NCBI RefSeq assembly: GCF_006345805.1
Contig: NC_043006.1
Coordinates: 101,804,001 to 101,868,000 of the forward strand
Length of the DNA stretch: 64,000 nucleotides
Source of the DNA: Octopus sinensis
Taxonomy: Eukaryota
Reading direction: 5' to 3'
This document shows, piece after piece, positions 7,216-11,100 of this stretch. The notes beneath the pieces are model-generated. The model searched no databases. It saw only the letters and a program-made list of their open reading frames with translations, and was not told the DNA's origin. Within the stretch, counting starts at the first letter, position 1. Every line of letters begins with the position of its first letter. The position numbers were made by a program, and so were the translations under genes.

Positions 7216-7987
7216 ATTAAAACCTCTTTGCATTATATTTGTTATTAAGCTCATGACTGGCTGAACCAATAATGTACCATACAAGTGTTTAGTTTTCTCT
7301 TTTCATTATTTGGATGTGACCCATGCAAAACTCAGCATTGTCTTTCATTCCTTTGAGGTCTGTATTATAATTAATTACTAGTGTCAATTCGATAAACTAT
7401 CACGCTCTTTTACAAAAGTCAATTGACCAAAGTAAAATAGCCTTAACGTTAGTTAGCTGTAAAGCTTGAATTTCTCAGCAAACTAACTTGGTTTGAATTC
7501 TAAACCTGGATTTTACTGAAAATCTGAATTTTCACCTCCATTTAAATAAAAATTCATCGATGGAGAAAATCCTTTGAGGACAGGCTGGAGTAAATATCTT
7601 TTCAGCAACAGTGTTGTACCTGTAGCTCACAGAGAAACATGTTGCCAACATAGATCTTTTATGTTGGTTTAAATATTTAGAAATAGAAGAAAAGAATTAA
7701 ATTATTTATGTTTTTGTATCCATTCATAAACTAATTCATGTGATGTCTGTCATGTTAAAATATTTGAAGACTTCTACTTCATGGCACCACAGAATCATTA
7801 GCATATCGGGCAAAATGTTCAGTGCGCATTTCACCTGTCTTTACATTCTGAATTTGAATTCCGATGAGGTCAAATTTGCCTTTCATCCTTTCAGGGTCAA
7901 TAAAATAAGCACCATACAGTTCTATATTTTAAGAGATGAGGAATTATTTACATTAGATAGATATTTGTCCTCATCTTGTTTGTTGTT

Positions 7988-8033
7988 AACACAACGTTTC
8001 AGCTGATATACCCTCCAGCCTTCTTCAGGTGTC
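7988..8033 (-). ncRNA. Minimal type-I hammerhead ribozyme-like motif
   Basis: Reverse complement reads GACAC-CUGAAGA-A-GGCUG-loop-CAGCU-GAAAC-GUU-GUGUU: stem I GACAC/GUGUU, stem II, and palindromic AACGUU stem III. Confidence 0.65.
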
Positions 8034-8127
8034 TTGGGGAAATTTTGAACCTGGGTTCTCATTCCTAAGGTATTTTTCGATGTTGTTGTTGTTGTTGTCA
8101 TTATTGTTGTTGTTGTTGTTATTATTA

Positions 8128-8660
8128 GCGCGATTTGACAGAACTTGCTGAACTTTTCGTTTCAAGCGGCTGCAATTTTGAAGAAGACTTGAAAGTGCAT
8201 ATTCTCAGAAAATATTCTGAATCTACTTCTCTTTCACTTCTCAGAATGTATGAGGGGAAATATGTTTGCGGGTTATTAACATCATGCCCTGGAGGAATGA
8301 ATACGATGACAGGAGAATATCATCAAATTTATACAAAGCTGTTTGATTAAATATTCTTTTCTTTTCTTTTTTCTTTTTTCATTCCTCTTTTTTTTTGTCT
8401 TTTTTTCTGTCGTATTCTTTTCGCCTGTTATAAAATTGAAACTTAAAGACTGGTGATGTAATTCCATCAACCTGTGGACGCAGATTGCTCTTGTTCATAC
8501 TTTAAATATAAATTTCTATAATTCTGAATTTTAATCACCTCTTATTTTGAACTTGACAAAGACAGACTCACTGTCGAAATATCGTTCAATAAAATTACAA
8601 TCGAATCGCACACTTCATCTTGACTGTTTACCTTTGTGAAGAGTTATGTCAATCCTTTTT
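8128..8660 (+). mobile_element. 3' fragment of a Penelope-like retroelement (GIY-YIG C-terminus plus 3' UTR)
   Basis: ORF 8135-8350 (ELAELF...DLKVHIL...LRMYEGKYVCGLLTSCPGGMN) matches the PLE endonuclease end pattern E..(W/Y)I..L.T..P.G.N. Hammerhead remnant lies downstream. Confidence 0.65.
8547..8589 (+). ncRNA. Decayed minimal hammerhead motif
   Basis: ttgaac-ttgacaaa-gacag-actca-ctgtc-gaaa-tatc-gttcaa: perfect stems I and II with a mutated core. Confidence 0.55.
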
Positions 8661-8887
8661 AAAAAAATATATTATTATTATTATTATTATTATTCAGGAC
8701 ACTACTTGGAATCGAACTTGGAATCTTGGGGTTAAGAGCACGGGCTACTAACCCCAAGATTCCGAGTTCGATTCCATGCAGTGACCTGAACAACAATAAT
8801 AATAATAATAATAATGATAATAACAACAACAACAACAACATCAAAAAATACCTTAGGAATGAGAATTCAGGTTCAAAATTTCCCCAA

Positions 8888-8933
8888 GAGACCTGAAGAA
8901 GGCTGGAGGCTATATCAGCCGAAATGTTGTGTT
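8888..8933 (+). ncRNA. Minimal hammerhead-like motif (second arm)
   Basis: gagac-ctgaaga-a-ggctg-gaggctatat-cagcc-gaaat-gtt-gtgtt, with C>T in GAAAC. Confidence 0.55.
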
Positions 8934-9089
8934 AACATCAAACAAGATGAGGACAAATATCCATCGAATGTAAATGAAAATAAACACCAGTTTGGTACTG
9001 GGGTCAGTGTGATCAACTTATTCCCTTCTGCCAAGATTTGAAACCAATATTTACTGAGCTATGTTTATAAGTACAGGGAAGGATTGTGT

Positions 9090-10633: not shown

Positions 10634-11100
10634 TTAACCAACCTGCCTGAGACCACGTTTTGGTTCTATGCTACAAAAATTTAACCCTTTAGCATTTAAA
10701 CTGCCCATGTCCAGCCAAAATATTCTACCTGTTTTAGGTTTAAACTAGCCATATCCAGCCAAAATATCCAACTTCAGGTTTAAACTGGCCAAATCCAGCC
10801 TCCAACACCTACTTTACAATGTCATTTTAAAAATAAACAGTCACATCATTGAAATCTCAAGATTACAAGATAATGCATGATTAATTCTAAACTGTGAAAA
10901 CAATACACATTGCATTTGACAATAATATGAATGCTAAAGGGTTAAATCAATCTTTTAGACTGATATAAACTGAAATCAAAATTCCACATTAATTTATGTT
11001 CCAAACTCCAGGGTTTTTTTCCCCTAAATTCTTTCTAATTTTCCTTATTAATTGAAGCAAAGGCAATGTATTTCAACAGGAATATGATAACAAAAGGGTT
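10634..11100. mobile_element. MITE P2 with nested P1
   Basis: 10950-11100 matches the 4501 copy in reverse and ends caaaagggtt. Left boundary is uncertain. Confidence 0.5.
10685..10941. mobile_element. piggyBac-type MITE P1, opposite orientation
   Basis: TTAA-ccctttagcatt...aatgctaaaggg-TTAA, with three internal copies of a tttaaactggccatatccagcc-like motif. Confidence 0.85.

What the first reader, a model, noticed from the sequence alone, without database searches (positions are those of the whole stretch)
7915..8976. Palindromic tRNA-headed retroelement carrying Penelope-type hammerhead ribozymes: a candidate Penelope-mobilised SINE
Seen: a unit made of a tRNA-like head (B-box gagttcgattcc near 8765), an (AAT/AAC)n tract and a ~140-bp tail. 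It occurs as a head-to-head dimer folding around ~8740. Each tail carries a minimal hammerhead-like motif (7988-8033 minus, intact; 8888-8933 plus). The dimer interrupts a G SINE with a 13-bp near-perfect duplication. Known: Penelope-like elements carry minimal type-I hammerheads with a palindromic stem III that cleave as dimers, and they often leave inverted terminal structures. Classical SINEs borrow LINE tails instead. Inference: this is a Pol III-transcribed, self-cleaving non-autonomous element mobilised by Penelope RT/GIY-YIG, a SINE/retrozyme hybrid.
Basis: partly seen in the sequence, partly recalled or inferred. Interest (0 to 1): 0.8.

Follow-up and report, generated by a model that had tools for sequence, protein, structure and literature searches.

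The report
tRNA-headed Penelope retrotransposon, terminator-free
The flagged palindrome is a single insertion made of the two ends of a protein-coding Penelope-type jumping gene that carries a tRNA-derived head and has no shared run of four T's on its coding strand, so this element was likely transcribed by RNA polymerase III, the enzyme that normally makes only short non-coding RNAs.

Summary
Head + (AAT)n + 'tail' is the terminal repeat (pLTR) of a 2.7-kb Penelope/Poseidon-type element (PLE). The head follows the RT-GIY-YIG frame in 29 of 30 ORF-selected loci, and the 'tail' is the first ~160 nt of that frame, with a minimal hammerhead. The palindrome is one insertion: 13-bp target duplication, one long and one short end (41 of 44 pairs), both known PLE traits. 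A 543-nt piece of an unrelated PLE sits inside the left arm. New: the head derives from tRNA-Arg(ACG); copies stop sharply at its 5' edge (26 of 39); and no TTTT is shared anywhere on the 2.7-kb sense strand, whereas other PLE frames in this genome hold 9-13 and 0 of 66 relatives lack it. Most likely the coding element was transcribed by Pol III, and the short copies are its truncated products; they share subfamily markers with ORF-bearing copies. Pol III use and cleavage are untested; RNA reads were uninformative. The scan noted tRNA-headed, TTTT-poor LINEs in other genomes (unchecked). I found no such PLE in print; Repbase and Dfam could not be searched.

The parts
7902..7914 (+). Target-site duplication, left copy (13 bp), inside an older SINE-like repeat
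   Evidence: Sequence; flanks 7790-7914 and 8977-9038 match consecutive parts of one repeat family in the window
7915..8080 (-). Left arm 'tail': start of the Penelope ORF (ATG at 8062) with the long end (carries the extra PLE tail, ends at GAACTG)
   Evidence: Translates as the ORF N-terminus; the same frame runs on into the body in L455, L466, L446; homologous peptide in P0003
7988..8033 (-). Minimal type I hammerhead, intact core CUGAAGA...GAAACGUU; predicted cut between 7993 and 7992
   Evidence: Fold and core check; commonest core among copies is GAAACGTT, 114 of 303 arms; no Rfam hit
8081..8126 (-). (AAT/AAC)n tract of the left arm, outer part
8127..8669 (+). Nested, unrelated insertion: 3' end of another PLE (end of a GIY-YIG frame, stop at 8350; 3' UTR with a U3-A8 variant hammerhead at 8547-8589)
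   Evidence: Own repeat family, 85-90% identical copies; longer copies give a frame with Pfam GIY-YIG; hammerhead fold is the MFE
8670..8694 (-). (AAT)n tract of the left arm, inner part
8695..8734 (-). Left head, 5'-truncated (3' half of the tRNA-derived segment); shares GGTTA (8730-8734) with the right head at the inversion joint
8730..8788 (+). Right head, tRNA-Arg(ACG)-derived, starting near tRNA position 17 (A-box lost, B-box 8764-8775)
   Evidence: Full heads of other copies are 48-49 of 75-78 identical to the genome's own tRNA-Arg gene, score 57-63 against a shuffle maximum of 34-37
8789..8839 (+). (AAT/AAC)n tract of the right arm
8840..8976 (+). Right arm 'tail': ORF start (ATG at 8859), decayed hammerhead 8888-8933, short end (stops at AATGTAAAT)
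8977..8989 (+). Target-site duplication, right copy

Best explanation
The feature is one truncated, inverted insertion of a 2.7-kb Penelope/Poseidon-type retrotransposon whose terminal repeat holds a tRNA-Arg-derived head directly upstream of its RT-endonuclease frame, and that head likely served as an RNA polymerase III promoter for the whole element. Shown: the unit order is head, (AAT)n, ORF (hammerhead in its first codons), then the next head; insertions have a target duplication and one long and one short 3' end; 5' ends pile up at -12..+6 of the tRNA start; no TTTT is shared on the sense strand. Inferred: (1) Pol III starts about 6 nt before the tRNA start (a TATA-like word lies 30 nt upstream) and, meeting no terminator, reads through the ORF into the next repeat. 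(2) The protein nicks both target strands and starts reverse transcription inside the RNA at two sites ~35-45 nt apart in the ORF start, as shown in vitro for the anole element PAc. (3) Priming at the first repeat of the RNA gives a ~280-nt SINE-like copy that ends at the transcription start; priming at the second repeat gives 5'-truncated ORF-bearing copies. (4) The inverted arm arises mostly by fold-back on the same cDNA or from RNA of the same source copy, sometimes from a second RNA. How the protein was translated from an uncapped RNA is not known; a Pol II read-through transcript could have supplied it. The family looks extinct here.
For: Parent element: head follows the ORF in 29 of 30 ORF-selected loci and tail sequence in all 30 (four of them repeat another locus); RT and GIY-YIG motifs read directly; tandem head-ORF-head at 2.7-kb spacing in L314/L332; 1703 protein relatives, whose best 120 carry RVT_1, PF26215 or PF28514. 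Tail is coding: frame open through the junction in L455, L466, L446; matching peptide in P0003, P0124, P0149. PLE insertion signature in 88 loci taken in genome order: 50 with an inverted partner; 41 of 44 two-tailed pairs have one long and one short end, none two long (P = 8e-10); duplication of 10 nt or more in 26 of 43 against 3% of mismatched flanks. Sharp 5' edge: of 39 anchor arms reaching +6, 26 stop within -12..+6, about 17 times the upstream per-base rate; 20 of 29 in a head-selected sample; exact 23-base counts 10,258 (tail), 3,926 (head), 932 (20-40 nt upstream of the head), with similar match rates of 16/47, 8/23 and 4/10. Copies that go on into the ORF also start there: 6 at -6..+5 against 1 reading in from an upstream ORF. 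No TTTT: no site in 15% or more of copies at any column with five or more copies; 0 observed against 4.9 in shuffles; other PLE frames of this genome 9-13 per 2.3-2.6 kb at the same T content; 0 of 66 relatives lack it; T-matched relatives predict 4.7, P(0) = 0.009; Phe is followed by a T-starting codon in 2 of 43 cases against 71 of 375. No separate SINE lineage: marker ratios equal; 4 of 260 columns differ at P < 0.01, the two strongest at CpG sites.
Against: No direct evidence of Pol III use. RNA reads lie equally on both strands and follow DNA copy number. The TTTT result is moderate: P(0) rises to 0.03 after allowing for mutational background; GGGG is also absent; synonymous shuffles of single copies are not significant; the relatives are not independent of each other and only 27-45% identical. 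A -9.6 kcal/mol hairpin sits at the same 5' edge and could stop or fold back the RT without any promoter. Known Pol III-driven retroelements are 0.1-1.3 kb (PMC10886601, passages), against 2.7-3 kb here. The hammerhead cut would fall ~23 codons into the ORF, and an uncapped RNA needs an unusual route to translation. No intact full ORF was found (longest open frame 551 aa among 150 scored matches), and that frame matched no Pfam family directly. 11 of 80 pairs have discordant arms, so fold-back is not the only route.
Confidence: 0.62

Rival explanations
1. An ordinary Pol II-transcribed Penelope element that happens to carry a captured tRNA/SINE fragment in its terminal repeat. The pile-up of 5' ends comes from a small hairpin at the head's edge that stalls or folds back the RT, and the lack of TTTT is chance or composition.
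For: Hairpin of -9.6 kcal/mol spanning -14..+10; full palindromes keep the parent's central dinucleotide, as fold-back at that hairpin predicts; D. virilis Penelope has a LINE-like internal promoter with Inr/DPE (PMC2377424, passages); TTTT absence has P of 0.009-0.03 only, and GGGG is also absent.
Against: Copies with no inverted partner also start at -6..+1. A- and B-box are kept together in 13 of 30 decayed copies by a strict pattern, against 0 of 20 relatives. Every control frame has TTTT. T-run avoidance extends to codon neighbours.
Confidence: 0.2
2. One reading: most short copies are a true non-autonomous SINE, transcribed by Pol III from their own heads and moved in trans by the Penelope protein, whatever polymerase made the parent RNA.
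For: Short copies carry promoter boxes, no TTTT and the ORF-start region that PAc protein needs (first 172 nt of the ORF, PMC11167929). Heads outnumber ORF ends about 4 to 1. 11 of 80 pairs mix subfamily markers, so RNAs from different sources met. Pol III SINE-like elements with hammerheads exist in Schistosoma (PMC6765202, passage).
Against: No marker specific to short copies; same T:A ratio (P = 0.73) and similar divergence, 3.9% against 4.4%. Copies that continue into the ORF start at the same place, so one long transcript explains both classes. It does not explain the missing TTTT in the ORF. The window copy itself lacks the A-box.
Confidence: 0.15
3. A fold-back DNA element (MITE-like, long terminal inverted repeats) or an assembly artefact.
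For: Long inverted arms around a variable centre.
Against: Arms are 5'-truncated at varying points with fixed 3' ends; ends are asymmetric in 41 of 44 pairs; the arms are part of an RT-coding element; target duplications flank them; joints between opposite strands also appear in raw reads.
Confidence: 0.02

Closest known systems
Poseidon element PAc of Anolis carolinensis (PMC11167929; parts 1-2 of 4 read: abstract, main text, start of methods)
   Same: Single RT-GIY-YIG ORF in tandem repeats; hammerhead overlapping the ORF start; two adjacent internal RT start sites in the first ~150 nt of the ORF that give a 30-40-nt tail; uncleaved RNA as the main template.
   Different: No tRNA-derived head or Pol III promoter is reported for PAc. 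Here the long/short asymmetry is counted per insertion (41 of 44), and an (AAT)n tract lies between head and ATG.
Penelope of Drosophila virilis and EN+ PLEs in general (PMC8557442 and PMC2377424, passages)
   Same: pLTRs from partial tandems, inverted 5'-truncated copy at the 5' end, tail at one end, internal promoter at the 5' end of the unit.
   Different: The Penelope promoter is a TATA-less LINE-like one with Inr/DPE; here the same position holds a tRNA-Arg-derived A/B-box segment and the ORF lacks TTTT.
Minimal hammerheads of metazoan PLEs (PMC4209133; part 1 of 4 and passages)
   Same: Short helix I (5 bp), longer helix II (6 bp), unpaired base before helix II, palindromic helix III with no loop; opposite-strand pairs 100-700 bp apart read there as truncated PLEs; the U3-A8 core variant (found here in the nested element).
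   Different: The cleavage triplet here is GUU, a word absent from that paper's text; activity untested.
TRIMp3: Cassandra, Helenus, Ajax (PMC10886601, passages)
   Same: A small-RNA-derived Pol III promoter inside a terminal repeat, probably from a captured SINE or gene.
   Different: Those are non-coding LTR elements of 0.3-1.3 kb; this is a coding PLE of 2.7 kb.
Schistosoma Sm-alpha/Sj-alpha SINE-like hammerhead elements (PMC6765202, passage) and animal non-LTR retrozymes (PMC7229834, passages; bioRxiv 10.64898/2026.07.22.740005, parts 1-3 of 5)
   Same: Pol III promoter plus hammerhead (Sm-alpha); short hammerhead repeats related to PLE pLTRs (retrozymes).
   Different: Those are non-coding direct tandem repeats released by cleavage. 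Here copies are mostly single or inverted, span the cut site, and are pieces of the coding element.

Membership tests
Penelope/Poseidon EN+ PLE | One ORF with RT and C-terminal GIY-YIG endonuclease | tested here: met
   RT and GIY-YIG motifs read in decayed copies; protein relatives carry RVT_1 and a few GIY-YIG. The 551-aa frame itself gave no Pfam hit at E 0.01.
Penelope/Poseidon EN+ PLE | No Zn-finger-like linker between RT and EN (separates it from Neptune/Nematis, PMC8557442) | tested here: met
   By reading the translations; the nested element does have a Cys-rich linker.
Penelope/Poseidon EN+ PLE | pLTRs formed by tandem or partial-tandem arrangement | tested here: met
   L314/L332, L290/L333, L455; 176 matches (up to 1 mismatch) to the tail-into-ORF junction.
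Penelope/Poseidon EN+ PLE | Inverted 5'-truncated copy and a 30-40-nt tail at one end | tested here: met
   50 of 88 loci inverted; 41 of 44 pairs have one long and one short end.
Penelope/Poseidon EN+ PLE | Minimal type I hammerhead in the pLTR | tested here: met
   Core and stems present; intact core in 91 of 303 arms, most losses at CpG. Rfam gives no hit.
Penelope/Poseidon EN+ PLE | Placement in an RT tree with named reference elements | not tested
   No named Penelope/Poseidon reference was fetched; the clade label rests on domain order and linker.
tRNA-derived SINE (SINE2) | tRNA-derived head with A- and B-box, copies starting at the head | tested here: met
tRNA-derived SINE (SINE2) | Non-coding and separate from its partner, with source copies of its own | tested here: not met
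   Whole unit is part of the coding element; no short-copy-specific marker.
tRNA-derived SINE (SINE2) | 3' end borrowed from a LINE, ending in poly(A) or a simple repeat | tested here: not met
   3' ends lie at two fixed sites in the PLE ORF start.
tRNA-derived SINE (SINE2) | Transcription by Pol III | not testable with these tools
   Only indirect signs; RNA reads uninformative.
Non-LTR retrozyme | Non-coding direct tandem repeats, one hammerhead per unit | tested here: not met
   Mostly single or inverted arms; direct repeats of the tail seen in few loci; the unit is coding.
Non-LTR retrozyme | Self-cleavage and circular RNA | tested here: inconclusive
   18 of 106 in-tail 5' ends fall within -3..+6 of the predicted cut (P = 0.01), but peaks of similar size lie at three other places and a palindrome overlaps the site. 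Cleavage itself cannot be tested here.

The most novel reading that the evidence does not exclude
An autonomous, protein-coding Penelope retrotransposon captured a tRNA-Arg gene as its promoter, lost every Pol III terminator from a 2.4-kb reading frame, and was transcribed full length by Pol III. Because Penelope RT starts inside its RNA, the same transcript also produced thousands of SINE-like copies: a direct route from an autonomous element to a SINE.
Probability: 0.6. Interest if true: 0.82.

Novelty: new variant of a known kind. Interest (0 to 1): 0.66.

Why it matters
The usual division is that autonomous retrotransposons use Pol II and only short non-coding passengers use Pol III (stated so for non-LTR elements and SINEs in PMC10886601). 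A 2.7-kb coding PLE with a tRNA head and no terminators would break it. It raises two testable questions: how such an RNA is translated, and whether SINEs can arise as by-products of their own autonomous partner. The absence of TTTT is also a simple genome-wide screen for more cases. Separately, the one-long/one-short end rule (41 of 44 insertions) is genomic support for the two-start-site mechanism so far shown in vitro for one PLE, and it explains PLE inverted ends. For annotation, roughly ten thousand tRNA-like heads in this genome belong to a PLE rather than to a LINE-driven SINE.

Tried and rejected
Rfam and ARAGORN found neither tRNA nor hammerhead in the window or six loci. Looking for the partner among Pfam GIY-YIG hits failed: none of the 30 loci fetched (of 147 matches) shared head or tail; the parent turned up instead upstream of head-selected copies. 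PF26215 is not in the library held. Considered 8127-8669 as the element's own body: rejected, it is another repeat family. Considered recurring 3' ends inside the ORF as premature Pol III stops: not supported, some coincide with gaps in my reference copy. Synonymous-codon shuffles of single copies were not significant for TTTT. Protein-level proxies for T-run avoidance in closer relatives were inconclusive. No DNA of close relatives (50-68% identity) could be had: scans with P0003 and an alignment gave nothing in viral contigs and only 9 loci in prokaryote genome records. Sequencing-run search: no RNA holder listed; three raw RNA runs added by species label gave reads on both strands alike and no pile-up of starts at the head. 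A dimer fold of two isolated hammerheads did not give the active dimer as its best structure; not informative. Ten literature searches returned no paper on a tRNA-headed or Pol III-transcribed PLE. Repbase, Dfam and SINEBase are not available here, and the one supplement of PMC13282606 was listed but not read, so the family may already be catalogued.

Full report
OBSERVATION. The window lies in a 2.72-Gb animal genome; from its size and repeats I take it to be an octopod, which no call states. The described features are there: inverted arms 7946-8126 / 8795-8975 at 91% and a hairpin 8670-8813 at 89%, a B-box at 8764, two hammerhead motifs, and a 13-bp duplication at 7902-7914 / 8977-8989 in an older repeat. 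The left hammerhead is intact; the right has a CpG change in stem III and a broken stem I. Rfam and ARAGORN see neither motif. The stretch 8127-8669 is a separate insertion: the 3' end of another PLE family, whose longer copies give a GIY-YIG frame and whose UTR carries a U3-A8 hammerhead variant, a variant described in PMC4209133.

THE UNIT IS REAL AND ABUNDANT. Exact 23-base patterns match 10,258 times in the tail, 3,926 in the head and 932 just upstream of the head (reversed controls 0). About a third of copies match each pattern exactly (16/47, 8/23, 4/10), so roughly 30,000 tails, 11,000 heads and 2,500 ORF ends (my estimate). Tail follows head in 27 of 30 similarity-ranked loci and 27 of 30 pattern hits taken in genome order. 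The head is tRNA-Arg(ACG)-derived: a degenerate pattern found the genome's own genes, ARAGORN confirmed them, and three heads align at 48-49 identities with scores 57-63 against shuffle maxima of 34-37.

THE UNIT BELONGS TO A CODING ELEMENT. Three head-selected loci carried a GIY-YIG frame beside the head. Searching with that frame's end, 29 of 30 loci had the head behind it and all 30 had tail sequence (L119-121 repeat L108, and L101 is the query's locus). Longer copies show RT and GIY-YIG in one decayed frame with no Zn-finger linker, the Penelope/Poseidon layout (PMC8557442, passages); I built no tree with named references. L314 has head, tail, ORF and head at 2.7-kb spacing. The 'tail' is the ORF start: an ATG 30-35 nt before the hammerhead core opens a frame that runs through the junction in L455, L466 and L446, 3 of the 8 copies translated, the rest being frameshifted. 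Relatives P0003, P0124 and P0149 have the same peptide. This matches anole PAc, where the hammerhead overlaps the ORF start and RT begins at two internal sites in the first ~150 nt (PMC11167929). No intact full frame was found (longest 551 aa among 150 scored matches); divergence is about 4% at non-variable columns, so the family looks extinct here.

HOW THE PALINDROME FORMS. I mapped 88 loci taken in genome order from the first 41 Mb of contig 1 (L156 and L157 dropped as overlaps of L155; the last 7 of the 100 listed hits not fetched). Fifty have an inverted partner. Of 44 pairs with two tails, 41 have one long and one short end, 3 two short, none two long (P = 8e-10). A duplication of 10 nt or more flanks the whole palindrome in 26 of 43, against 3% of mismatched flanks. 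So each palindrome is one event, with the inverted copy and one-sided tail known for PLEs (PMC8557442). The two arms agree at a subfamily marker in 69 of 80 pairs (54% by chance), so they mostly come from one template or source, but not always.

THE CASE FOR POL III. First, 5' ends. Of the 88 anchor arms, 22 stop in the tail, 19 in the AAT tract or with no head found, 8 inside the head, 26 within -12..+6 of the tRNA start and 13 further upstream. The stop rate at the edge is about 17 times the upstream rate. Copies that continue into the ORF start there too: L458, L460, L464, L465, L466 and L314, against L455, which reads in from an upstream ORF; the other junction loci are truncated before or inside the head. 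The commonest upstream end is a G at -6, with a TATA-like word 30 nt before it. Second, terminators. No TTTT is shared by 15% of copies at any column with five or more copies along the 2.7 kb; shuffles predict 4.9. Four full frames of other PLEs in this genome have 9, 13, 10 and 9 at the same T content (L315 and L319 are close kin). None of 66 related stretches from metagenome contigs lacks it (14 of the 80 loci left out as apparent duplicates or short matches). The 24 with T up to 23% predict 4.7, P(0) = 0.009, or 0.03 after allowing for mutational background. Phe is followed by a T-starting codon in 2 of 43 cases against 71 of 375 and 28 of 119 in controls. An A-box plus B-box pattern is found in 13 of 30 family copies and behind the ORF of 0 of 20 relatives.

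AGAINST. GGGG is absent too. Synonymous shuffles of single copies are not significant. A hairpin of -9.6 kcal/mol coincides with the 5' edge. Known Pol III retroelements are at most 1.3 kb (PMC10886601). RNA reads from three runs fall equally on both strands, follow DNA copy number and show no start pile-up at the head; they look like read-through of embedded copies and decide nothing. Pol III use is therefore inferred, at about 0.65.

SINE OR BY-PRODUCT. Short and ORF-bearing arms share the marker ratio (71:33 against 44:17, P = 0.73) and similar divergence; 4 of 260 columns differ at P < 0.01, the two strongest at CpG sites in a set partly chosen by head similarity. The simplest reading is one long transcript primed at its first or second repeat. 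Some short copies may still have acted as SINE sources; the window copy cannot have, lacking the A-box. Most copies span the predicted cut site. A mild excess of 5' ends at it (18 of 106 within -3..+6, P = 0.01) hints at occasional cleavage, but similar peaks occur at three other places.

NOVELTY. The PLE anatomy, hammerhead and inverted ends are known. A tRNA-derived head on a coding PLE with a terminator-free frame did not appear in ten searches; Repbase and Dfam were not searchable, and the supplement of PMC13282606 was not read. This scan's notes list tRNA-headed LINEs poor in TTTT and PLE-dependent tandem retroposons in other genomes (unchecked, seen after I had formed this reading). Papers seen: PMC11167929 parts 1-2 of 4; bioRxiv 10.64898/2026.07.22.740005 parts 1-3 of 5; PMC4209133 part 1 of 4 and passages; PMC13282606 part 1 of 3 and passages; passages of PMC8557442, PMC7229834, PMC6765202, PMC2377424, PMC10886601 and PMC6962438; a term search of PMC13343379 with no hits. 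Pol III promoter and terminator rules are from established knowledge, not from a call.

VERDICT. Observation confirmed; interpretation partly supported. New variant of a known kind; interest 0.66.

Noticed in passing
window 8127-8669 (+); L062, L065, L069, L331: 3' fragment of a second PLE family (Cys-rich linker, Neptune-like) with a U3-A8 hammerhead variant; most of 10 fetched copies end next to an (ATT)n tract, and in L063/L064 and L066 that tract belongs to the element reported here.
   Followed up: partly
G000:C2:3121912-3157897 (L338-L364): Tandem array of tRNA-Arg(ACG) genes, 91 of the 100 listed pattern hits, mostly about 206 bp apart.
   Followed up: no
L315, L316, L317, L319; L038, L047, L050: Young PLE families with open frames of 775-883 aa; by eye their 3' UTRs also carry U3-A8-type hammerhead cores.
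   Followed up: partly
L006, L024, L025, L074, L092, L113, L123: The element's (AAT)n tract often holds other repeats, which separate head from tail (their LINE/SINE labels are from recall).
   Followed up: no
L457, L458, L459 (oriented 1500-2000): A copy starting at the head is joined directly behind a partial ORF start, suggesting template jumps from the RNA 5' end to another RNA.
   Followed up: partly
protein cluster of P0006: A 53%-identical relative of the ORF is annotated in the barnacle Amphibalanus amphitrite, closer than the named insect and coral relatives (39-43%); horizontal transfer among marine animals is possible.
   Followed up: no
L475-L483: PLE frames with pLTRs lie in two bacterial MAG records, probably host DNA in those assemblies.
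   Followed up: no
L014, L017, L028: The same insertion lies in several copies of a larger repeat, so some copies spread passively inside another element.
   Followed up: no
window 10695-10800: 40-bp tandem repeat, 2.5 copies.
   Followed up: no
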